Shown: piece after piece, positions 3,409 through 40,473 of the stretch
How the letters are laid out: every line of letters starts with the position of its first letter
Numbering within the stretch: position 1 is the stretch's first letter
NCBI GenBank assembly: GCA_965221105.1
Contig: OZ244871.1
Coordinates: 831,673-895,672, forward strand
Direction: 5' to 3'
Length of the DNA: 64,000 nucleotides
Source of the DNA: Pseudomonadales bacterium
GTDB lineage: Bacteria > Pseudomonadota > Gammaproteobacteria > Pseudomonadales > GM7GCV1
Made by a program: the position numbers and the translations under genes
Notes under the pieces: generated by a model
Seen by the model: the letters and a program-made list of their open reading frames with translations, nothing else
What the model was told of the DNA's origin: nothing
Databases searched by the model: none

Positions 3409-3741
3409 TCATCCTATCCATAACTTCATACCCAGTGCGCGAGCCACATTCACCAGGCTGTCCAGTCGAGCACCTGGATGCCCCCGCTCAACTTTGTTCA
3501 ACGTGGCATAGGCAACACCTGAGAGGTCGCACAGATCATTCAGGGTGAGCCCCTGCTTTTTGCGTTCAGCACGTATCCGCTGTCCTGCTTCTTCAATGGG
3601 TGAAAACGCCGCCGTTTGTGTCGCCATGGCGGCTTCCTTTTGTGCTCTGGTTACGCGTTGACGCAATTCATCCAGCAGTGCGCCGGTATCAACCCTGCCC
3701 AGGGAGGTCGTGGCTATACCGGACTCTTGATTGTTCATCAT
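3409..3741 (-). CDS. hipB: HipB-like XRE-family HTH protein
   Basis: 110 aa. C-terminal HTH LTLNDLCDLSGVAYATLNKVERG. First gene of the three-gene operon. Confidence 0.8.
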   Translation of the reverse strand: MMNNQESGIATTSLGRVDTGALLDELRQRVTRAQKEAAMATQTAAFSPIEEAGQRIRAERKKQGLTLNDLCDLSGVAYATLNKVERGHPGARLDSLVNVARALGMKLWIG

Positions 3742-3769: not shown

Positions 3770-3852
3770 TTTTATATTCAGTACAGTATATTTCAAGCAG
3801 ATAAAATATATTATTATGAATATATAAATTAATATTTTAAGTAATTATATTC

Positions 3853-4664
3853 GTAACTACTCGCCCCCTCCTCCTTCTTGATCATGTCGGCGGCGATGCC
3901 GTTGAGGGCGATGTGGATGGCAGTCAACGGATTGTAGCCTTGGTGGGCCATGGACTGGAGCGAGCTGGAGATTCGGCAGTGGGCCTGGGCGTGACGGAGG
4001 GTTCGGAAGCAGCCGGAGACCTTCTGCTTGACCTTGGCCATGCGGATATCGCGCTCGGCGCGGGTGTTGGTGAACGGGGTATTGCGGGCGAAGCGCAGCA
4101 CCTCGGTGTCGTACTGGGTCAGCGCCTCGTGGAGGTTCTCGGCATCGGACTTGGCGATGCGCCCGCGCTGTCCGTCGAGACGGGCGGGGGGCTTGTTCCC
4201 CTGTGGCCTGGGTGAGGATGGTCCGGGAGCGCGCGCACGGCCGTGAAGGCTGCCTCGTCGAGGGCCTTGGCGTCGAGTTCGCTGACCCTGCGGCAGGTTC
4301 CGCTCAGGAGGTGGCCCAAGCGCTTGGCCCAGGCGTGGCCGCGGGCGTCCTCGACGAACCTGAGGTCGTGCAGCAGGTGGGCACCGCACAGGGCGTGCTC
4401 ACAGTGATCTCAGGCGAAGGAGCTGGCCCAGCGGTCGTGGACCAGGGCGCCACCAGAGCGGGGGATGACAGTGAGGTCGTCGATGGCGGCGCGACCGCGC
4501 CTTCGGTGGACGAACGTCACCCTCAGGTCCCCGGCACCGATGCTATGCAGCCAGTGGTTCGTGCCATCGACGCGCCTGATCAGGGCCTTGAGGGTCTGCG
4601 CGGCCATGAAACGCACACACCATAGAACCTCTTTCCTATAGCGTCAAGGGGGGTGAGCAGTTAC
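3853..4664 (-). mobile_element. IS66-family element, internally deleted (about 0.8 kb), transposase in broken frames
   Basis: Ends are GTAACTACTCGCCCCC (3853) and the reverse complement GTAACTGCTCACCCCCC (4664). ORF fragments carry IS66 transposase motifs: DGTNHWLHS..LVHDRW and FTNTRAERDIRMAKVKQKVSGCFRT..AHCRISS. Confidence 0.8.
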
Positions 4665-4733: not shown

Positions 4734-4853
4734 AAGCCTGACGATGACCTACTCTCGCATAGCGAAGCGCTACACTACCATCGGCGATACGCCGTTTCAC
4801 TTCTGAGTTCGGAATGGGATCAGGTGGTTCCAACGCTCTATGTTCGTCAGACA
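4734..4853 (-). rRNA. rrf: 5S ribosomal RNA
   Basis: Minus strand reads TGTCTGACGAACATAGAGCGTTGGAACCACCTGATCCCATTCCGAACTCAGAAGTGAAACG..GAGAGTAGGTCATCGTCAGGC, the canonical bacterial 5S. Ends are approximate (+/-3). Confidence 0.9.
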
Positions 4854-4995
4854 AACCGGTCGGCAGCCTGTCTGCAACAGACTCCCGGAAGTCTTAAAAA
4901 CGTGAATAACTGTACGTATCACATCAGTGTCTCACACACCCACATCAATCGCTTGTGTTTTCCAGCACATGGAACAGCACAATCGCACATTATAT

Positions 4996-7864
<2,869 letters not shown>

Positions 7865-8054
7865 ATATAATGTCAACGACTGTGCTTTTTGAGCTGGAAG
7901 GCGGCTCACTTTTCCCGGAGAGAATCCGCTGCCCTTGCGGGGGCCAGACACTCTCACACAAAACAAACCACCTACTTTTTCTACTCAGTAACGATTGATA
8001 TAAAAACAGATGTCTATAGAGACACGTGCCTTGATACAGTTACAGTTATCCACA

Positions 8055-8067
8055 TTTTTAAAGAACA
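8055..8067 (-). promoter_or_regulatory. boxA-like antitermination element in the tRNA-Ala/23S spacer
   Basis: Minus strand TGTTCTTTAAAAA, compared with the boxA consensus TGCTCTTTAACAA. Confidence 0.55.
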
Positions 8068-8158
8068 TTTGGCTCACAGGCCAAAAAACAACACCCTCAA
8101 AAAGGCCCTGTTTTTTGAACTTGAACCCAGGTCAATCTCAACCTCTGCCAGCATGGGT

Positions 8159-8234
8159 TGGTGGAGCTATGCGGGATCGAACCGCAGACCTCCTGCGTGC
8201 AAAGCAGGCGCTCTCCCAGCTGAGCTATAGCCCC
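8159..8234 (-). tRNA. tRNA-Ala (anticodon TGC)
   Basis: Minus strand GGGGCTATAGCTCAGCTGGGAGAGCGCCTGCTTTGCACGCAGGAGGTCTGCGGTTCGATCCCGCATAGCTCCACCA. Cloverleaf and anticodon were read by eye. Confidence 0.95.
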
Positions 8235-8399
8235 ATTGCCACGCCAACAGAAGCCAACAGAGAGTCTTGCTACCCGGCATCGGGGGCGGCCATTGTACGC
8301 AAATCGCGACCTGAAGCAACATCTTTTTTGCCTGCTCTACAGACGATTAAAACATCATATTGTGACCAGACACATGTCTCGATACTACCGGCTGAGTCA

Positions 8400-8769
8400 T
8401 AATGTAGTGCTCAGGCCGAAAACAGCGGCGGAAATCGTTCGCGAGGCGGTGCTCGAACTCACCTACACAGCGCATGACATGGCACCCTTCGCCCGCGACA
8501 TCGGCTACGTAGACGAAGCTGGCAAAGTGCAACCACCGTTCCCCTGGGACGAAGACCGACGAATTCGCCTCCGCGCGAAACTCGATGCGCTGTATTTCCA
8601 CCTCTACGGCATCACCGAGCGCGACGACATTCGCTACATTTACTCAACCTTTCCCATCGTTGAAAGACAGGAACGCGAGGCCTGGGGTTGCTATCGCTCC
8701 CTCGACCTGTGCCTCGCCTGGTTCAGCGCACTCTCCGCAGGCCGACCAGACGAAACGATCTCTCTTTAA
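8400..8769 (+). pseudogene. C-terminal fragment of a large N6-adenine DNA methyltransferase / type IIG-like R-M enzyme
   Basis: The tail of ORF 8236..8769 reads ..IRLRAKLDALYFHLYGITERDDIRYIYSTFPIVERQEREAWGCYRSLDLCLAWFSAL. I recognise this as the conserved C-terminal tail (LDA.YFHLYG...D..YI..TFPIV.R.E...G.YR) of large methylase/restriction fusion proteins. No N-terminal catalytic part is present. The start coordinate is approximate. Confidence 0.5.
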
Positions 8770-8886
8770 AAAAAGCTTGCTGAGTCAATTATGATCTTTG
8801 CAGGAGTACTTTTGGCGCACTCATAACGAGAGGTGTCTGATCTATAGGTATGTACGGACGCTACAGGATATCATCAGATGATGCGA

Positions 8887-8963
<77 letters not shown>

Positions 8964-19181: not shown

Positions 19182-19221
19182 ACTGGCCGAGTCAAAGGCT
19201 CACCAGGCAGACATAACAAAA

Positions 19222-19245
19222 GGGACTTATATACGAAAGTTGACA
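19222..19245 (+). repeat. left arm of 24-bp inverted repeat GGGACTTATATACGAAAGTTGACA
   Basis: 21/24 identical to the reverse complement of 21322..21345 (GGGAATTACATAGGAAAGTTGACA). Confidence 0.8.
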
Positions 19246-19310
19246 CGTCATAGCGACCTGCTTCGTTCCGCTATTCTTTGACGCTTCACAGGCCGACCAA
19301 TGTCGCCGCC

Positions 19311-19970
19311 TCAACGTCCAGCAGCCCTCGTCCCCAAGGCGAGTATGCTCAAATGCGGCATGATGTCCGCATTGTCCTGATGTCCGCACGCACGGCACCG
19401 GAAGGCGGCCTGCGATGGACGGTTTCCCGTGTGGGCGAACCCGCACACCGGGCACGCACGGCTCGTATGCTTCGGATTCACTTCGACAATATGCCCGGCT
19501 TTGTAGGCGAGCTTCCGCTTCAGGCCATGCCATCCCGTCTCAAGAATGGATTTGTTCAGCCCTGACTTCTGCTTGACGTGCTTGCCGGGTGCTTCTTCCG
19601 TGCCTTTCGCCGAAGCTATCATGCCCTTCGTGTTGAGCTTCAGGGCCACCACCGTTTCGGCTTTGTCGGCGATCTGCTGTGACGTGTGATGCTGCCGGTT
19701 GTCTCGGTAGCATCGGATATTGCGATACACCTTCGACCGGCGCTGCTTTGTGACGTTCCGCCGGTTCGACCCTTTCACCTGCCGCGCCATCCGTCGCTGA
19801 TAGCGACGCTTGCGGGCTTCAAGACGCTGTAGCCGCTGCCCATCCAAACGGTAGATTACGATGCGGCTGTATCTGACGATACGGGTGAATGCGATCGCCC
19901 GGACCGATGTCGTGATACGACGCGTGGATGCTGTCCTCAAACGAAGAACCGAAAAAGGGTACCGCCTCAC
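19311..19970 (-). pseudogene. tnpB: TnpB (IS200/IS605-family OrfB) remnant lacking the N-terminal half
   Basis: 219 aa with ..RKRRYQRRMARQVKGSNRR..ALKLNTKGM..KSGLNKSILETGWHGLKRKLAYKA..VNPKHTSRACPVCG..NRPSQAAFRCRACGHQDNADI. These are the RuvC-II/III and zinc-finger regions only. No tnpA is present. Confidence 0.75.
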
Positions 19971-19980: not shown

Positions 19981-20252
19981 GTGAGTGTCAGTCCATTTTC
20001 AGGGTCGATGCCGCCGCTGTCACATCCGTTGCGGCCTCCCCGATTACGTCAGTCGTCGTCCCGGATGTCGAACACTACATTTTGGCGCGGATTGTGGGCC
20101 AGGGTGACGATGAGTCGGTTTGCGGGATTGTCCCTGACCGCATTGTTATTCGTCGCCGCCACAAGGTAAGCTTGGGCTGCGGAGCCTGCGGCCACGGTAG
20201 CGCCACACAAAGTGAGTGGACACTGTGGCCATGTCAACCTCTCCTGAAATCT

Positions 20253-20277
20253 GGTAGTGCCTCAGTTTGAAAAATTC
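20253..20277 (+). repeat. dispersed 24-nt repeat copy (GGTAGTGCCTCAGTTTGAAAAATTC)
   Basis: Read directly. Tandem with the 20286 copy. Confidence 0.7.
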
Positions 20278-20285
20278 GTGATTTT

Positions 20286-20309
20286 GGCGGCATCTCAGCT
20301 TGAATTTTC
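20286..20309 (+). repeat. dispersed 24-nt repeat copy (GGCGGCATCTCAGCTTGAATTTTC)
   Basis: Read directly. Confidence 0.65.
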
Positions 20310-20380: not shown

Positions 20381-21201
20381 TCAGCGCCGCACATCGACCG
20401 TGACATCACACCATTTGGCATAGGCTGGCGCACCGGCCGCCTCCAGCTCTGGCGTGGGCCAGCTGGGCGGGCCGCAATGACGGTCGGTCCGAAAGGTGGC
20501 CCCATAGCCTGCAGCATTGGCAACGAAAGCAAAGCCCGGGGGCGGCGTGGGGTTGTTCAGGTTCCAACAGCGCTGCACATTGGACGCAGCTGCATGACAC
20601 ACCTTGCCCCAGATCCGCACTTTGAAAATGCCGTTGCTCGGGGTCCGGGTCGGGGTGAACGAGTCACCTTGCTGAGTCGGTGTGTTCCCCGTGTATTGGC
20701 CAGTCAGGGGGGTTACATCGTCACTCGCTTCACTGCACCGCGGGTACCCTTTATTGGCGGTGAACGTCCGGCCCATGAAGGTCACGCTGCGCGAGCATTT
20801 GCGGGTCGTATAGGTCTGGCAGGCGATGGCGATGGGCCCGCCGCGGGAATAGGTGCCGGTCGGGTTGTGGAATTCGACCCCTCCGCTGACTCCCGCACTC
20901 TGGGCGCAATGGGAACCGGGTCCCACGCCGAAGGTCGTCCTGTCGTGAGTCATCTCGACCTCGTCTGGATGGTCCGGTGCAGCCTCGATCGTCAGGTTGG
21001 TGACCGCGCCGGACAAGTTCCGGTTGTTCACCGAGGGGGCAGGAAAGACCAGGTTCTGGTTCAGCCCGGTCACATAAGTAGCAGCGGGCTGCGACACCCG
21101 TGAAAATCTGGCCGCCCGTTCTACCTGTGCCGATGCCGGCAGGGCAAGGACTGTCAGCAGGACGGCGGCGCACGCCTTAGGAAAGAGTCGGGGGGGGGCA
21201 T
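20381..21201 (-). CDS. Cys-rich secreted protein A with poly-C tract after the ATG; out of frame at the current tract length
   Basis: ATG at 21201 is followed by C9. One extra C gives MPPPRLFPKACAAVLLTVLALPASAQ.. in frame with ORF 20381..21097 (8 Cys). With C9 there is a stop after 15 codons. Confidence 0.6.
21190..21198. repeat. homopolymer G9 (+ strand) / C9 (coding strand)
   Basis: Counted directly in the sequence. Confidence 0.95.
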
Positions 21202-21300
21202 GTCATGCATTGTTGGTCCACGGGGCAGATACCTTCTTGAGTGCAGTAAAAAAGCTTGAGTGATACGTCAACCAGTTGTACCGCCACAAAAATGATGGGA

Positions 21301-21327
21301 TTTATAAAAGGAAAGGAAGGCTGTCAA
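21301..21327 (-). promoter_or_regulatory. possible promoter reading into secreted-protein gene A (TTGACA-N15-TATAAA)
   Basis: The -35 TTGACA is the inner end of the right inverted repeat. The spacer is only 15 nt, so this is a weak call. Confidence 0.35.
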
Positions 21328-21345
21328 CTTTCCTATGTAATTCCC
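21322..21345 (-). repeat. right arm of 24-bp inverted repeat
   Basis: Reverse complement is GGGAATTACATAGGAAAGTTGACA. Pairs with 19222..19245. Confidence 0.8.
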
Positions 21346-21346
21346 T

Positions 21347-21371
21347 AAAAAACCCGCAGCCGGGGCCGCGG
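21347..21371 (-). terminator. Rho-independent terminator about 90 nt downstream of 16S rRNA
   Basis: Minus strand CCGCGGCC-CC-GGCTGCGG followed by GTTTTTT. Confidence 0.7.
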
Positions 21372-21457
21372 TTGTTGTGTCTGCGAAGACGACCCTCGCT
21401 TACAATCCGATCAAAACAATGCGTGTGGATGCTTGACTGAGAGTCAGGTATTTCGTT

Positions 21458-22981
<1,524 letters not shown>

Positions 22982-31444: not shown

Positions 31445-31473
31445 AGATATTTAGTACATGCCTATGAAATTTT

Positions 31474-31497
31474 GGCAGTGTCTCAGTTCGAAAATCC
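31474..31497 (+). repeat. dispersed 24-nt repeat copy (GGCAGTGTCTCAGTTCGAAAATCC)
   Basis: Read directly. Confidence 0.7.
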
Positions 31498-31660: not shown

Positions 31661-32243
31661 TCAGCGGCGGCCGCAGCCCTCGCCAGTCGAGATGAAGGAG
31701 TGGACGGAGGTGAGCTTCTCAGTAAACAGCTTGGGATTGGACCTGACCTCATCAATCTTGAAGGACATCATGCCGCTGCCGATGGCGTTGCCGCCATTGG
31801 GGTCTCGCCCGAAGCCCTTGATCACGGCCCCGGCTTTGGGCCGGATATCCAGGGTCAAGTCCCGGGTCGTAGAGCCGGTTCCAAAACTTATATTCGTTAG
31901 ATTTCCGACATCGGTCCACCCTCTTTCCTCGCGCCGCCATTCAAGCAGGCTTTTTTCATTTACAGGAATAGTGCTAAAAAAGAGGCCAAGAACTCTTGAA
32001 CCAAAGTCTTCGAAGGTGACTTCGGGGTCGGTGGACGACAGGCGCACATGATAGCGCAGGTAGTCGCCGCCGCAGCCTTCCACGTGGTAGCCGTTGATGT
32101 TGCCGGTGACGGACACCGTGCATGTCTGAGCCGTGCAGCGTCTTGACTGCGCCAGCACCGCCGATGGCAGGGCCAGCATCAGGGCCACCAGTGCGACGGC
32201 AAGGGCCGTCAGTCTAGCGGGGGGGGGTCAAAGTTATGGCCAT
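31661..32243 (-). CDS. secreted protein B with poly-C tract in the leader; out of frame at the current tract length
   Basis: ATG at 32243, then GCC ATA ACT TTG A, then C9. With C8 or C11 the leader is MAITLTPP(P)ARLTALAVALVALMLALPSAVLAQ, in frame with ORF 31661..32188 (4 Cys). With C9 there is a TAG after 9 codons. Confidence 0.55.
32219..32227. repeat. homopolymer G9 (+) / C9 (coding strand)
   Basis: Counted directly. Confidence 0.95.
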
Positions 32244-36210: not shown

Positions 36211-37497
36211 ATGAGCCAATCGCAGCACTTGTTTGACCGGGCCAAACAGTCCATTCCCGGCGGAGTGAACTCGCCGGTGCGGGCTTTCCAGGCAGTTGGT
36301 GGAACACCACTGTTCATCGAACGAGCCCGGGGAGCTCATCTCTATGATTGCAGTGGCAACAAATATCTGGACTATGTGCTTTCCTGGGGCCCCATGATCC
36401 TTGGTCACGCCCACCCGGAGGTGATTGAAGCAGTGACCGAAGCTGCCAGATCGGGACTGAGTTACGGAGCACCGACCCGGATTGAAACCTTGCTGGCCGA
36501 GGAAGTCTGCACACTGGTTCCCGGCATTGAGTTGCTGCGCATGGTGAATTCGGGTACCGAAGCGACCATGAGTGCACTTCGGCTGGCGCGTGGCTTCACC
36601 GGAAGGAACACGATTATCAAGTTCGAGGGCTGTTATCATGGGCACTCCGACTCGTTGCTGGTTAAGGCTGGCTCGGGTGCGCTGACCTTGGGAGTACCCA
36701 GTTCCCCGGGCGTTCCCGAGAGTCTGGTGCAGCACACCATGACACTCACCTACAACGACAGCGGGTCCGTCGAAGACGCTTTTTCAGCCCGTGGGGAAGA
36801 GATCGCCTGTGTCATTGTTGAACCGGTTGCGGGCAATATGAACTGTATTCCTCCGGAATCCGGCTTTCTGGAGTGCCTGAGAGAACAGTGCACCCGCTAT
36901 GGTTCAGTCCTGATTTTTGACGAGGTCATGACCGGGTTCAGGGTCGCTCTTGGCGGTGCCCAAGCGAAATATGGCGTTGTGCCCGACCTGACCTGCCTGG
37001 GCAAAGTGGTTGGCGGCGGCATGCCGGTTGGTGCCTTTGGTGGACGACGGGACATCATGGAATATATTTCGCCCCTGGGACCCGTGTATCAGGCGGGCAC
37101 ACTGTCTGGCAATCCGGTCGCCATGGCTGCCGGTCTCAAGACACTCCAGCTCATTCAGGAGGCCGGATTTTACGGGAGTCTGGAAGAGAAGGTGTCATAC
37201 CTGACCAAGGGCTTGCGCACCATAGCCTCGGGCAGGGGCATTCCGCTGACCACCAACCAGTCCGGCAGCATGTTCGGATTCTTTTTTACCAAGGCTGAAC
37301 AGGTGACGCGCTATTCACAGGTCATGGACTGCGACACCGAGCAGTTCGTACACTTCTTCCAGAGCATGCTCAATGCCGGAGTCTACCTGGCTCCCGCCGC
37401 CTTTGAAGCCGGGTTCATGTCAGCGGCCCATTCCACGGCCGATCTGGATTACACCCTTGAGCAGGCGGATGCGGCGCTGCGGTCGCTGAATCGATAA
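36211..37497 (+). CDS. hemL: glutamate-1-semialdehyde 2,1-aminomutase
   Basis: [26 protein letters not shown].. and ..[17 protein letters not shown]... Start set at the ATG at 36211, not at the longer ORF start. Confidence 0.95.
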
Positions 37498-37500
37498 GTG

Positions 37501-38499
37501 ATGGCGTACGACATTCTGGGCATAGGCGCGGCCCTCGTGGACACCGAAATACTGGTTGACGACGAGGATCTGAACAACCTCAAGATCGACAAGGGTTTGA
37601 TGACACTCTGTGATGAAGCCCAGCAGGGACGCTATCTGCGCTACCTGCGAGAGCATATTGATCGGGCTCACAGAGCCTGTGGAGGGTCCGCTGCAAATTC
37701 AATGATAGCCTCCAGCCTGCTCGGGTGCAGGGTACACCTGACCTGCCAGGTGGCAGACGATTCCGACGGGAGGTTCTTCCTGCACGATCTGGGACATGCG
37801 GGTGTGTCATGCAACAGCAGGCATCAGGCGAGACCAGGTGTCACCGGGAAATGCCTCGTGATGGTGACTCCGGACGCGGAGCGAACCATGAATACCGCAC
37901 TCTGTATCAGCGAAACACTGTCCACCAGAAACATAGAACCGGACATTTTTGAGAATGCCGGCTATCTGTATCTGGAGGGGTATCTGGCGACATCGACAAG
38001 CTGCATGGACGCGGCCATCTCCATGCGGGAACAGGCGCGCCAGAATGGTGCCGCTGTCAGTATCAGTCTGTCTGATCCCGGAATCGCGAAACATTTCGAA
38101 CCGGAGTTACGTGCAATGATCGGCGGTCGGGCAGATCTGATATTCTGTAATGCACATGAGGCCATGCAGTGGACACACACCGACAGCATCAGCGACGCGG
38201 CTGAGAAGCTGAAAGAGGACACCCGCACCTACGCCATTACGCTGGGCCCGGACGGAGCCTTGGTCTTTGATGGATCCGAGGCATGCCGAGTCGATTCACC
38301 GAGAGTCGAGGCCATCGATACGAACGGTGCCGGTGACATGTTTGCCGGAACTTTTCTTGCAGCCATCTGCCAGGGGAAGAACTTCGCCGAAGCGGCAGCA
38401 CTGGCCTGCCAGGGCGCTGCGCAGGTTGTATCACGGATGGGTCCAAGGCTTGACAGCGACGGCTACGGGCTCATACGTGGCGCGCTTCAGTCCGGTTGA
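37501..38499 (+). CDS. PfkB-family kinase (adenosine kinase-like)
   Basis: YDILGIGAALVDTE N-terminus and C-terminal DTNGAGDMFAGTFL (PfkB signature 2). Confidence 0.8.
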   Translation: MAYDILGIGAALVDTEILVDDEDLNNLKIDKGLMTLCDEAQQGRYLRYLREHIDRAHRACGGSAANSMIASSLLGCRVHLTCQVADDSDGRFFLHDLGHAGVSCNSRHQARPGVTGKCLVMVTPDAERTMNTALCISETLSTRNIEPDIFENAGYLYLEGYLATSTSCMDAAISMREQARQNGAAVSISLSDPGIAKHFEPELRAMIGGRADLIFCNAHEAMQWTHTDSISDAAEKLKEDTRTYAITLGPDGALVFDGSEACRVDSPRVEAIDTNGAGDMFAGTFLAAICQGKNFAEAAALACQGAAQVVSRMGPRLDSDGYGLIRGALQSG

Positions 38500-38507
38500 G
38501 ACCGGAG

Positions 38508-38939
38508 CTATCTCTGCTCAACCCGTGCCGACACCTGCTGAAGACTGCCATCATCGAACTCGAGGATCAGGTCCATCTGGCCGGAGCGGATCGCGGCGGG
38601 TTCGGGATCAAACAGCATCAGGTGGAGACCTCCCTCGGTAAACAGGACGGCTTCCCCGGCGGGCAACGCTACCGACTCCATCTCCACCATGCGCATCATG
38701 GTGTCTTCCATGACATGTGTGTGCATTTCAATCCGGCTCGCAGAACCGGACTTTACTCCAACGAGCGCCCGAGCATCGGACCCCCCGTTGCTGAGCAGGA
38801 AATAACCTGCGCTGATCGATTGGCCCGGGATGGGCGCAACGATCCGGGCATCGCTGACGCGAATCTCCGCGAACACAAGGGCTGGCAGCACAAGGAGGAG
38901 GAGGGCTGGAATAATTTTCAATTGGGTGTCCTCAGACAT
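38508..38939 (-). CDS. periplasmic copper chaperone PCu(A)C
   Basis: Signal peptide plus ..IEMHTHVMEDTMMRMVEM..GGLHLMLF.., the H(M)X10MX21HXM-type motif of DUF461/PCuAC. Confidence 0.8.
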   Translation of the reverse strand: MSEDTQLKIIPALLLLVLPALVFAEIRVSDARIVAPIPGQSISAGYFLLSNGGSDARALVGVKSGSASRIEMHTHVMEDTMMRMVEMESVALPAGEAVLFTEGGLHLMLFDPEPAAIRSGQMDLILEFDDGSLQQVSARVEQR

Positions 38940-38979
38940 TCAGCAATGATTATTATAGGGTACTCTGCATACACAACCT

Positions 38980-39443
38980 GTAACTGCTCGCCCCCCTTGA
39001 GATCATAGGAAAGAGGTTCTCTGGTGTGTGCATTTCATGAGTGCACAGGGTCATGGGCACCACACAGTTCAGTTCCAAGGCGACGGCGGGGGTGTGTCAG
39101 GCGCTGATGCCGCCGGCGATCATGGCGGTGGAGTCCGGGTAGCCCATGGCGACGGTCAACACAGCATCGCTGCGCTCGGAGTTCGACGCGCTCAAGGGGC
39201 GCTTCGAGACGCTGTGCGCGGACGCCCACGACCACGTCTGGGCCAAGCGCTTGGGCCACCTCCTGAGCGGAACCTGCCGAAGGGTCAGTGAACTCGGCAC
39301 CAAGGCCCTCGACGAGGCCCACTGCCGAATCTCAAGCTACCCAATCCATGGCCCACCAAGGCTACAATTTGCTGACCGCCATCCAGATCGCACTCAGCAC
39401 CGCCGCCACAATGATCAAGCGGGAGAAGGGGGCAAGCAGTTAC
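38980..39443 (+). mobile_element. IS66-family miniature deletion derivative (about 0.46 kb)
   Basis: Left end GTAACTGCTCGCCCCCC.. is near-identical to the reverse complement of 4600..4664. Right end is GGGGGCAAGCAGTTAC. The internal ORF joins the transposase N-terminal part (..KRLGHLLSGTCRRVSELGTKALDEA) directly to the C-terminal tail (HCRISSY..QGYNLLTAIQIAL). Confidence 0.75.
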
Positions 39444-39555
39444 GCTGGATCATTGATCGCGGTCGTTGCACCAGCTTTCTACCTGCTGTTTTGTGGAGCC
39501 GTATCGCCGTCTGCAGAGGAAATCTGGGCACTTGCACAACAGAAGTCATCAGCGA

Positions 39556-40158
39556 TCAGAAGCTGCCGCAAGTTCCAGTTCCAGTTCCCAAGCCCTGGTA
39601 CTTGTTGACCTTGATTTGGGGGGTATCAATCTCCACCCATAGTTGATCTGTTATGCCATAGCCTTTTGGCTGCATCGCCTTGAACGTGCCTGAACCTGCG
39701 GTCGACATAGTCGACGTCCAGTAGACGTTCCCAATATGATCTTCGCCAGCCTCAACAGTGACGCCGCGGAAGACGTTGGTAGGATTTCCATTGAAGTCCG
39801 TGTATCTCATGGCCGGGTATCCATTGACATCTTTGGCGATGAGCCACGCGCTAATATTTTCTGACCCAGGAGTAGGATTTCCTTCATCATCCAAAGTTGT
39901 TGTACCATACGAGATAGATGCAACACCATTCATTCCGTCTGCGTTCACAGTAGCTTTGATACAGACGCGCTGGCCCCAATCCTCTATCGCCTGCGATTCG
40001 TTCCTGGCAACCGCGGTGGTGTCAACATTCTTAAAAAAATCCTGCGCCGTTTGCGCCATTACTGCAGTTAGCGGAGACAGCATCAATGCCGCAAGCGCGA
40101 TGGCGGGTGCCGTCAGTCGTTTACGGGGGGGGGGGGGTAATTTGCTTATTGTGTTCAT
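39556..40158 (-). CDS. secreted protein C with poly-C(13) tract in the leader; in frame (ON)
   Basis: MNTISKLPPPPRKRLTAPAIALAALMLSPLTAVMAQ (Sec-type signal peptide, AXA site) followed by a 164-aa mature part with 2 Cys. The PPPP is encoded by the C13 run. Confidence 0.65.
   Translation of the reverse strand: MNTISKLPPPPRKRLTAPAIALAALMLSPLTAVMAQTAQDFFKNVDTTAVARNESQAIEDWGQRVCIKATVNADGMNGVASISYGTTTLDDEGNPTPGSENISAWLIAKDVNGYPAMRYTDFNGNPTNVFRGVTVEAGEDHIGNVYWTSTMSTAGSGTFKAMQPKGYGITDQLWVEIDTPQIKVNKYQGLGTGTGTCGSF
40125..40137. repeat. homopolymer G13 (+) / C13 (coding strand)
   Basis: Counted directly. Confidence 0.95.
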
Positions 40159-40473
40159 AGTTCTGTCCAAAGTTAGTAACTATCAGATGGTTTTGTACTT
40201 GAATTATTGGGAATTTGCAAGTACTTGTGAGGGATTTGCGCTGTAGGGTTTTTCGCCACGCCCGATGTCATTGATGGAGCAACGGTTGGCCTGCTGGAGT
40301 ACACGCTGGGACGTCAAGACGGTTCGCAGGGCCAACAATGCCTCTGGATCCGGCCCATATGAGAACGAGTGTCGTTTGGACGCGCCGGACGGGCAGGCAC
40401 CCTCCCAGGGGAAGGCCCGGCCGATGCATTGTTAACCTATCACCACCCCACACATGACGCAGTGTTGTTGTGA

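What the first reader, a model, noticed from the sequence alone, without database searches (positions are those of the whole stretch)
20381..21201. Secreted-protein gene A: C9 tract directly after the ATG leaves an 8-Cys secreted protein out of frame (phase-OFF copy)
The minus strand reads ATG (21201-21199), then C9 (21198-21190), then GACTCTTTCC. As sequenced, the reading frame is ATG CCC CCC CCC GAC TCT TTC CTA AGG CGT GCG CCG CCG TCC TGC TGA, which is a dead end. With 10 (or 7) C the frame becomes MPPPRLFPKACAAVLLTVLALPASAQVERAARFSRVSQPAATYVTG.. . That is a clean signal peptide, and it joins the 238-aa ORF 20381..21097 exactly in frame. I checked this by position arithmetic: ATG to the ORF start codon is 104 nt, and an in-frame junction needs 105 or 102. 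The mature part has 8 Cys, an even number consistent with disulfides in an exported protein. A signal peptide that appears only after a 1-nt tract change is hard to explain by chance.
Basis: partly seen in the sequence, partly recalled or inferred. Interest (0 to 1): 0.72.

Follow-up and report, generated by a model that had tools for sequence, protein, structure and literature searches.

The report
Poly-C switch on secreted-protein gene
Nine C's just after the start codon put a small exported, cysteine-rich protein gene out of frame, and relatives (probably sponge-associated bacteria) show this run is a hypervariable on/off switch shared by several exported-protein families.

Summary
On the minus strand, ATG (21201, with another in-frame ATG at 21210) is followed by C9 (21198-21190). 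As sequenced the frame stops after 15 codons. One more C (or two fewer) gives a 273-aa protein with a signal peptide (…LALPASA|Q) and 8 invariant Cys.

Comparative data support the phase-variation reading.
- Across the leaders scored in 14 related MAGs, a conspecific genome and this window, the same position holds a C run of 8-27 nt.
- 12 of 38 are in frame, which matches the random 1/3.
- 24 of 26 out-of-frame copies keep at least 185 open codons.
- In a conspecific genome (16S 99.93% identical) the syntenic locus carries C12 and is ON.
- A second tract gene in the window (C13, ON) has C18 (OFF) at its syntenic locus there.

The only three G/C runs of 9 nt or more in the window all sit in such leaders, on three unrelated exported-protein families.

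Gene A's body was swapped relative to the conspecific strain. The junctions lie exactly at the tract and at a 22-nt motif downstream.

The protein family is tiny (48 hits in 1.84 billion representatives) and has no Pfam, PDB or fold match.

The mechanism is a known kind (compare Neisseria pilC and opa) in a new family and setting. Read-level switching was not testable, and homopolymer length in long-read MAGs is uncertain by about 1 nt.

The parts
21208..21210 (-).
   Evidence: One search shows the sequence. The syntenic orthologue P0009 is annotated from this ATG (MHDMSPPPLIEAC).
21199..21201 (-).
21190..21198 (-). Poly-C tract (C9), the frame switch. As sequenced the gene is OFF. C10, C7 or C13 would be ON.
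   Evidence: The same position holds C8-C27 in homologues. The syntenic locus of a conspecific genome has C12.
21128..21190 (-). Rest of the signal peptide in the ON frame: RLFPKACAAVLLTVLALPASA, with predicted cleavage ASA|Q
   Evidence: One search gives the translation. The leader is conserved across the family. The cleavage site was judged by the AxA rule only; no SignalP tool was available.
20381..21127 (-). Mature domain (about 248 aa, 8 invariant Cys) plus stop codon. Member of an uncharacterised, very small family.
20250..20304 (-). Two copies of the 22-nt motif TTCAARCTGAG…CCARA. They mark the 3' end of the conserved cassette.
   Evidence: Homology to paralogue L047 ends at 20249.
21354..21371 (-). 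Terminator-like hairpin plus T run after the 16S rRNA gene. It separates the 16S gene from gene A's own 5' region.
31661..32243 (-). Sister gene B: ATG 32243, C9 at 32219-32227, OFF as sequenced (ON with C8 or C11). Unrelated mature domain.
39556..40158 (-). Sister gene C: ATG 40158, C13 at 40125-40137, ON as sequenced. The syntenic orthologue in the conspecific genome has C18 and is OFF.

Best explanation
Gene A is a simple-sequence-repeat contingency locus. A poly-C run sits in the coding region between the start codon and the hydrophobic core of a Sec-type signal peptide. Gain or loss of C's, presumably by slipped-strand mispairing during replication, moves the ATG in and out of frame with a roughly 270-aa exported protein that has four likely disulfides. 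With C9 the ribosome stops after 15 codons, and no in-frame start exists downstream of the tract that would keep the signal peptide. The copy in this assembly is therefore OFF. A change of +1 or -2 nt turns it ON.

The same tract-plus-signal-peptide leader is fused to at least three unrelated exported-protein families in this genome and its relatives. The gene body behaves as an exchangeable cassette bounded by the tract on the 5' side and by a terminator plus a 22-nt motif on the 3' side.

Shown here: the tract, the frames, the tract-length polymorphism between paralogues and between conspecific orthologues, maintenance of the ORFs, and the cassette mosaic.

Inferred: the slippage mechanism, reversibility within a population, export of the protein, and its biological role. 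My guess for the role is a surface or secreted factor under host or phage selection, held with low confidence.
For: - Sequence and frames are as described.
- The only three G/C runs of 9 nt or more in 64 kb are all in this kind of leader.
- I scored 38 leaders, from the 14 related MAGs, the conspecific genome and this window. Tract length is 8-27 nt. 12 are ON and 26 OFF. This matches 1/3 (binomial p = 1.0) and rejects 'always in frame' (p = 2e-25). Among tracts of 10 nt or less the split is 4 ON and 11 OFF. 24 of 26 OFF copies keep 185-286 open codons.
- dN/dS of gene A against homologues is 0.44-0.69, and OFF and ON copies look alike. The 8 Cys are invariant.
- A conspecific genome is 99.93% identical in 16S and 98.6% in the neighbouring DLH (dienelactone hydrolase) gene. 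Its syntenic locus reads ATGCATGACATG-T-C12, which is ON.
- Gene C has C13 (ON) here and C18 (OFF) at the syntenic locus there, with flanks 97.75% identical. In the two alignments covering gene C and its coding flank (37148-40442), the other indels are multiples of 3.
- The gene caller annotated many homologues as N-terminally truncated, as expected for OFF copies.
- Strong Shine-Dalgarno motifs (GGAG/GAGG) precede the ATG upstream of the tract in most homologues.
Against: - No read-level or culture data are available, so reversible switching in a clonal population is unproven.
- The related MAGs are probably PacBio HiFi/metaMDBG consensus assemblies. I infer this from a sponge genome note that reports a MAG family named's titles (PMC12859430) and from the relative's contig name. 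Homopolymer lengths, especially the long ones, could be off by 1 nt or more.
- The ON fraction of 1/3 is also what a neutral, non-functional tract would give.
- The Shine-Dalgarno motif before gene A's ATG is weak.
- dN/dS of 0.4-0.9 shows only moderate constraint.
- Two homologues (L007, L008) have extra frame breaks, so some copies do decay.
Confidence: 0.78

Rival explanations
1. Homopolymer miscall. The real tract is C10 (or the population is mostly C10), and gene A is simply an intact, constitutively translatable gene that encodes a short poly-proline stretch.
For: The relatives appear to be long-read MAG consensus sequences, a platform whose indel errors concentrate in homopolymers (the error profile is general knowledge). 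A single base decides ON or OFF.
Against: This would change only the state of this one copy, not the nature of the locus. Homologous tracts range from 8 to 27 nt and two thirds are out of frame, including 11 of 15 tracts of 10 nt or less. In the two alignments that cover gene C and its coding flank (37148-40442), indels against the conspecific genome are multiples of 3 apart from the tract, so the assemblies are not generally frameshift-prone.
Confidence: 0.1
2. Tract length does not gate expression. RNA polymerase or ribosome slippage on the long C run produces a mixture of frames from any allele, so every copy is partly expressed. The tract mainly serves as a recombination junction or an expression damper.
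For: An ON fraction equal to the random 1/3, together with maintained ORFs, is what this model also predicts. Homology between paralogues very often begins exactly at the tract. Slippage of polymerases and of tRNA-Pro on homopolymeric or CCC-C runs is known, from my own knowledge of the transcriptional-slippage and EF-P/m1G37 literature.
Against: From my own knowledge, transcriptional slippage is well documented mainly for A/T runs and is weak for runs of 8-10 nt, which are the commonest lengths here. The closest precedents with G/C tracts in signal-peptide regions behave as DNA-level switches (pilC, PMC13017665).
Confidence: 0.1
3. Decaying pseudogene. A frameshifted remnant of a mobile cassette that landed next to the 16S gene.
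For: The gene is out of frame as sequenced. A truncated TnpB gene lies just downstream. The gene's GC content (63.8%) differs from the window's (56.3%). The Shine-Dalgarno motif is weak.
Against: A 268-codon open frame follows the tract, the 8 Cys are intact, and dN/dS is 0.44-0.69. The 5' region is 85-100% identical (60-nt alignment windows) to that of the ON orthologue. The same out-of-frame-but-open state recurs in 24 of 26 OFF copies.
Confidence: 0.02

Closest known systems
Neisseria pilC1/pilC2 poly-G tract
   Same: A homopolymeric G/C run lies inside the signal-peptide coding region, and frameshifts there switch an exported protein on and off (PMC13017665).
   Different: There is no sequence or fold relation to PilC. 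The tracts here reach 27 nt. The same leader serves several unrelated small Cys-rich proteins. The host is probably a sponge-associated gammaproteobacterium, not a human pathogen.
Neisseria opa multigene family (CTCTT repeats in the leader peptide)
   Same: Many paralogous loci per genome, each with its own repeat in the leader-peptide coding region, most of them OFF at any time. Diversity arises largely by recombination between paralogues (PMC3960869). Here there are up to 7 copies per genome, about 2/3 are OFF, and a cassette was replaced at a syntenic locus.
   Different: The repeat here is a homopolymer, not a pentamer. The product is not an Opa-type beta-barrel; no Pfam or PDB match was found. 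However, alphaproteobacterial copies carry a perfect 13-nt tandem repeat upstream instead of the C run.
Poly-G/C contingency loci of Campylobacter, Helicobacter and Haemophilus
   Same: Genome-wide use of G/C homopolymers at the 5' ends of genes for surface structures (PMC8355987 and PMC2823697, listed).
   Different: Those organisms are host-adapted pathogens or commensals of vertebrates. I found no report of this in sponge symbionts.
pilE/pilS gene conversion with a G-quadruplex initiator (Neisseria antigenic variation)
   Same: A variable cassette is exchanged between loci, and a G-rich element lies next to the recombination junction. This is my own knowledge, offered as an analogy only.
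   Different: Here only one historical replacement between two strains is seen. No silent-copy archive is known and no G4 role was tested.

Membership tests
SSR-mediated translational phase variation (contingency locus) | Hypermutable simple repeat inside the 5' coding region | tested here: met
   C9 lies between the ATG and the signal-peptide core.
SSR-mediated translational phase variation (contingency locus) | Repeat-length change toggles between a full-length and a truncated product | tested here: met
   C9 gives a stop after 15 codons. C10 or C7 gives a 273- or 272-aa protein. No alternative in-frame start retains the signal peptide.
SSR-mediated translational phase variation (contingency locus) | Repeat length is polymorphic between closely related strains while the flanks are conserved | tested here: met
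   C9 here versus C12 at the syntenic locus of a genome with 99.93% identical 16S. Gene C has C13 versus C18. The range across paralogues is 8-27 nt.
SSR-mediated translational phase variation (contingency locus) | OFF alleles stay functional (ORF maintained under selection) | tested here: met
   24 of 26 OFF copies have at least 185 open codons. dN/dS is 0.44-0.69. The Cys are invariant.
SSR-mediated translational phase variation (contingency locus) | High-frequency, reversible switching within a clonal population | not testable with these tools
   This needs read pile-ups, amplicon sequencing or reporter assays.
SSR-mediated translational phase variation (contingency locus) | Product is surface-exposed or exported | tested here: inconclusive
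   A classical n-h-c signal peptide with ASA|Q and an even number of conserved Cys are seen by inspection. No signal-peptide predictor or experiment was available.
Opa / PilC protein families (homology) | Sequence or fold similarity to Opa beta-barrels or to PilC | tested here: not met
   No Pfam, NCBIfam or PHROG hit. No PDB sequence hit. Foldseek best E-value is 1.6 against PDB and 1.3 against BFVD.
Programmed frameshift / transcriptional-slippage gene | Conserved slippery run of fixed length with a conserved out-of-frame arrangement | tested here: not met
   Length varies from 8 to 27 nt and one third of copies are in frame.
Pseudogene | Accumulating stops or frameshifts and neutral substitution pattern | tested here: not met
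   Gene A has a single frame break, at the tract. dN/dS is below 1.

The most novel reading that the evidence does not exclude
The window may show one locus of a modular, horizontally shared variation system, probably of sponge symbionts. In this reading a poly-C 'switch leader' (promoter, Shine-Dalgarno motif, ATG, a few codons, then C run) is combined with interchangeable exported-protein cassettes that end in a terminator plus a 22-nt inverted-repeat motif. The tract would work both as an on/off switch and as the 5' recombination junction, possibly by forming G4 or i-motif DNA. Cassettes would then move between loci, strains and even bacterial classes. This would give mutualistic symbionts an Opa/pilE-like combination of phase variation and antigenic variation of their secretome.
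Probability: 0.3. Interest if true: 0.8.

Novelty: new member of a known kind. Interest (0 to 1): 0.6.

Why it matters
Contingency loci are a hallmark of bacteria in an arms race with a host immune system or with phages. They have been studied almost only in vertebrate pathogens and commensals.

Here the same device appears in genomes whose relatives carry sponge-symbiont names. It involves long poly-C runs, several paralogues per genome and at least three unrelated exported-protein families. This suggests the symbionts stochastically vary what they expose to the sponge or to phages.

It also nominates a concrete, previously uncharacterised set of small Cys-rich proteins, with no detectable known fold, as candidate host- or phage-interaction factors.

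There is a practical point for annotation. Two thirds of these genes are annotated as N-terminally truncated or are missed, because the consensus tract is out of frame.

Tried and rejected
- **Function by homology.** Pfam, NCBIfam and PHROGs searches on A, B and C gave nothing. A PDB profile search gave nothing. The AlphaFold2 model (pLDDT 77.7, pTM 0.73) had no Foldseek match in PDB or BFVD.
- **Wider distribution.** Two scans of JGI metagenomes (protein patterns; leader DNA pattern) and one of IMG/VR found no relatives. The family seems confined to one set of ENA/NCBI MAGs.
- **The window's own genome.** The DLH neighbour and P0084 (100% identical to gene C's product) could not be located by exact-protein look-up. 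The source record is therefore unnamed. P0084 sits on a 2,769,150-bp contig.
- **RNA element in the 3' flank.** There is no Rfam hit and no unusual fold (z = 0.48).
- **Sigma-70 promoter scan upstream of gene A.** A TTGACA-N15/16-TATAAA-like site is visible by eye only.
- **Target-site duplications around the 22-nt motif.** None were seen, so a transposon model is not supported.
- **Opposite-strand ORF 20477..21103.** I rejected it as the gene, because conservation, the Cys pattern and dN/dS all follow the minus-strand frame.

Full report
**1. The observation**

The minus strand of the window reads …CAACA ATG CAT GAC ATG CCCCCCCCC GACTCTTTCCTAAGGCGTGC…. The second ATG is at 21201-21199 and the C9 run at 21198-21190. 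Translated as sequenced, it gives MPPPDSFLRRAPPSC and then a stop. With one more C (or two fewer) it gives MPP(P)RLFPKACAAVLLTVLALPASAQVERAARFSRVSQPAATYVTG…, which continues without a stop to 20381.

This has the shape of a Sec signal peptide: basic residues, a hydrophobic core, then ASA|Q. The mature part has 8 Cys.

The window (56% G+C) contains only three G or C runs of 9 nt or more: 21190-21198 (9), 32219-32227 (9) and 40125-40137 (13). All three are C runs on the minus strand. All three lie 0-18 nt after the last base of an ATG and directly before a hydrophobic signal-peptide core. As sequenced, gene B (ATG 32243) is out of frame and gene C (ATG 40158) is in frame.

**2. What the protein is**

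The corrected protein has no Pfam, NCBIfam or PHROG match. A word-indexed search of 5.8 billion protein clusters found 36 homologues. A full HMM search of 1.84 billion representatives found 48 (10 below 1e-30). This is a very small family.

Eight Cys and a C-terminal block (GIFRVRIWG…C…GYGATF…CGP…WPT…YAEWCDVTVD) are conserved. An AlphaFold2 model built on the family alignment is moderately confident (pLDDT 77.7, pTM 0.73, mostly beta). It has no Foldseek match in PDB or BFVD (best E-values 1.6 and 1.3) and no PDB sequence match. The biochemical function is therefore unknown.

**3. The tract in relatives**

A scan of one genome per GTDB species returned 46 loci in 14 MAGs. Their titles are Arenicellales, Ca. 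Poriferihabitans/Poriferihabitaceae, Ca. Azotimanducus, Pseudohongiella, Pseudomonadales, Paracoccaceae and Alphaproteobacteria, and there are up to 7 copies per genome.

Most copies carry a C run at the same place, after an ATG plus 1-8 codons and before the hydrophobic core. I scored 38 such leaders, including neighbouring genes, the three window genes and three loci from a conspecific genome.
- Tract lengths are 8-27 nt.
- 12 are in frame with the nearest upstream start and 26 are not. This equals the random 1/3 (p = 1.0) and is incompatible with a normally constrained coding poly-proline (p = 2e-25).
- Among tracts of 10 nt or less, where sequencing is most reliable, 4 are ON and 11 OFF.
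- 24 of the 26 OFF copies still have 185-286 open codons after the tract.

dN/dS of gene A against 13 homologues is 0.44-0.69, with no difference between ON and OFF partners. Many database homologues are annotated from internal starts. They lack the signal peptide, as expected when the gene caller meets an OFF allele. A few homologues have lost the tract altogether (P0001 and P0002, MSTDYTLPRLF…).

**4. Orthologous loci in a conspecific genome**

A 2.81-Mb circular contig (ERZ25070844, ctg10134_56x_c) carries the same neighbourhood: DLH hydrolase, then 16S rRNA, then the gene. Its 16S is 99.93% identical to the window's, and the DLH gene is 98.6% identical. There the leader reads ATGCATGACATG-T-C12. 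It is in frame and annotated as MHDMSPPPLIEAC… (P0009). This also suggests that the real start in the window is the ATG at 21210.

Gene C's syntenic orthologue in that genome has ATGAACACAATAAGCAAATT-C18 (OFF, annotated as truncated), against …AAATTA-C13 (ON) in the window. The flanks are 97.75% identical. In the two alignments that cover gene C and its coding flank (37148-40442), every other indel between the two genomes is a multiple of 3.

So at two orthologous loci of two near-identical genomes the tract length differs, and the ON/OFF state is reversed.

**5. Cassette structure**

Upstream of the tract (21200-21440) the window is 85-100% identical, in 60-nt alignment windows, to the syntenic locus L048. 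From the tract to 20249 it is only 35-90% identical to L048. Over that same stretch it is 77-100% identical to L047, a paralogue elsewhere in the relative's genome. L047 has a different start peptide (GTG AGC ACA GAT TCT A) and a C22 tract. The body of the gene at this locus has therefore been replaced, with junctions at the tract and about 130 nt past the stop.

In all-against-all comparisons, left homology boundaries cluster either at the tract (0 to +18) or 70-110 nt upstream. Right boundaries cluster between the stop and about +130.

The 3' boundary coincides with a terminator hairpin followed by a 22-nt motif, TTCAAACTGAG(N)CACTACC. In many loci the same motif occurs inverted about 70 nt upstream of the start, just before a -10-like TATAAT. 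In the window it occurs only three times: twice after gene A and once after gene B.

Family genes keep 62-71% G+C while their host flanks range from 45 to 73%. Nucleotide identity to gene A is 82-88% in MAGs labelled with different orders and classes. This suggests horizontal spread. I did not verify the taxonomic labels.

**6. Mechanism and rivals**

The best-supported reading is translational phase variation by length change of the poly-C run. It is the same logic as the poly-G tract in the signal-peptide region of Neisseria pilC (PMC13017665) and the CTCTT repeats in the leader peptide of the multicopy opa genes (PMC3960869).

What remains inferred is the slippage itself, its reversibility and its rate.

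The rivals are:
- a 1-nt consensus error, which would alter only this copy's state;
- frame-independent expression through RNA polymerase or ribosome slippage, with the tract acting mainly as a recombination junction;
- a pseudogene, which the open frame and dN/dS contradict.

The related MAGs probably come from PacBio HiFi/metaMDBG sponge metagenomes. I judge this from a sponge genome note that reports Ca. Poriferihabitaceae MAGs (PMC12859430) and from the contig naming. Individual tract lengths, especially the long ones, carry some uncertainty.

**7. Context and novelty**

The window's 16S is 85.4% identical to that of E. coli and is of full gammaproteobacterial length.

Four full-text searches combining sponge or symbiont terms with phase variation, contingency loci, homopolymeric or slipped-strand terms returned nothing relevant.

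The mechanism is of a well-known kind. Three things are new: the protein families, the apparent ecological setting, and possibly the modular leader/cassette organisation.

I rate the finding as a new member of a known kind. Interest is moderate to high, because it points to a specific, testable set of variable exported proteins in what are probably sponge symbionts.

Noticed in passing
window 4736-8963 and 21458-22979: The rRNA operon is split. The 16S gene (21458-22979, minus strand) is followed by a terminator-like hairpin and then about 12.5 kb of ordinary genes (ABC transporter, TnpB fragment, gene A). Only then come tRNA-Ile, tRNA-Ala, 23S and 5S. The conspecific genome shares at least the DLH, 16S and secreted-gene part of this arrangement.
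   Followed up: partly
window 20250-20271, 20283-20304, 31471-31492; L002-L047 flanks: A 22-nt motif, TTCAAACTGAG(N)CACTACC, lies just after the terminator of poly-C-leader genes. In many related loci it also occurs inverted about 70 nt upstream of their start. It occurs nowhere else in the 64-kb window (0 expected by chance). I saw no target-site duplications. Its role is unknown: cassette boundary, operator or recombination site.
   Followed up: partly
L018, L019, L021, L023, L044 (about 2690-2960); L022 (about 2795-2900): In the MAG OZ244899, labelled Alphaproteobacteria, family members lack the poly-C run. Instead they have a perfect 13-nt tandem repeat (CTCTCCACGGGGC or CTCACACCGGGGC) in 3 to about 19 copies, immediately upstream of AAGGAGG-ATG. 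In L022 the unit is inverted. This may be a different repeat-based switch on the same gene family.
   Followed up: partly
L005 3016-3025 vs L007 3006-3013: Two paralogues in one genome differ in the C run (10 vs 13) and also in an (AC)n repeat directly after it, (AC)5 vs (AC)4. This is a second small repeat in the leader.
   Followed up: no
L034 minus strand at 2328; L017 plus strand at 3829; L010 minus strand at 2798; L026 plus strand at 3730: Related genomes also carry C runs of 10-19 nt at the 5' ends of ORFs that lack signal peptides. Examples are a 381-codon ORF and a 977-codon ORF. One C19 run sits at the 3' end of a family gene. The set of tract-bearing genes is therefore wider than the exported families.
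   Followed up: no
window 19311-19970 (minus strand); also 3853-4470, 19219-19469, 39217-39443: A truncated TnpB (OrfB_IS605 / Cas12f-like TNB domain) gene lies just downstream of gene A. Several short dispersed repeats are shared at 82-95% identity with different places in the conspecific genome.
   Followed up: partly
L001-L046 record titles vs gene identity: Gene A is 82-88% identical at the nucleotide level to copies in MAGs labelled Pseudomonadales, Arenicellales and Paracoccaceae. The family's G+C stays at 62-71% while host flanks range from 45 to 73%. Either cassettes transfer between classes or the taxonomic labels are unreliable.
   Followed up: partly
window 39371-40442 vs L049; window 20381-21189 vs L048: The tract genes diverge much faster between the two conspecific genomes than their flanks do. 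For gene C it is 90.2% against 97.75%. For gene A the body is about 63% identical at the protein level, while the neighbouring 16S and DLH genes are 98.6-99.9% identical. These genes look like hot spots of strain-level variation.
   Followed up: partly
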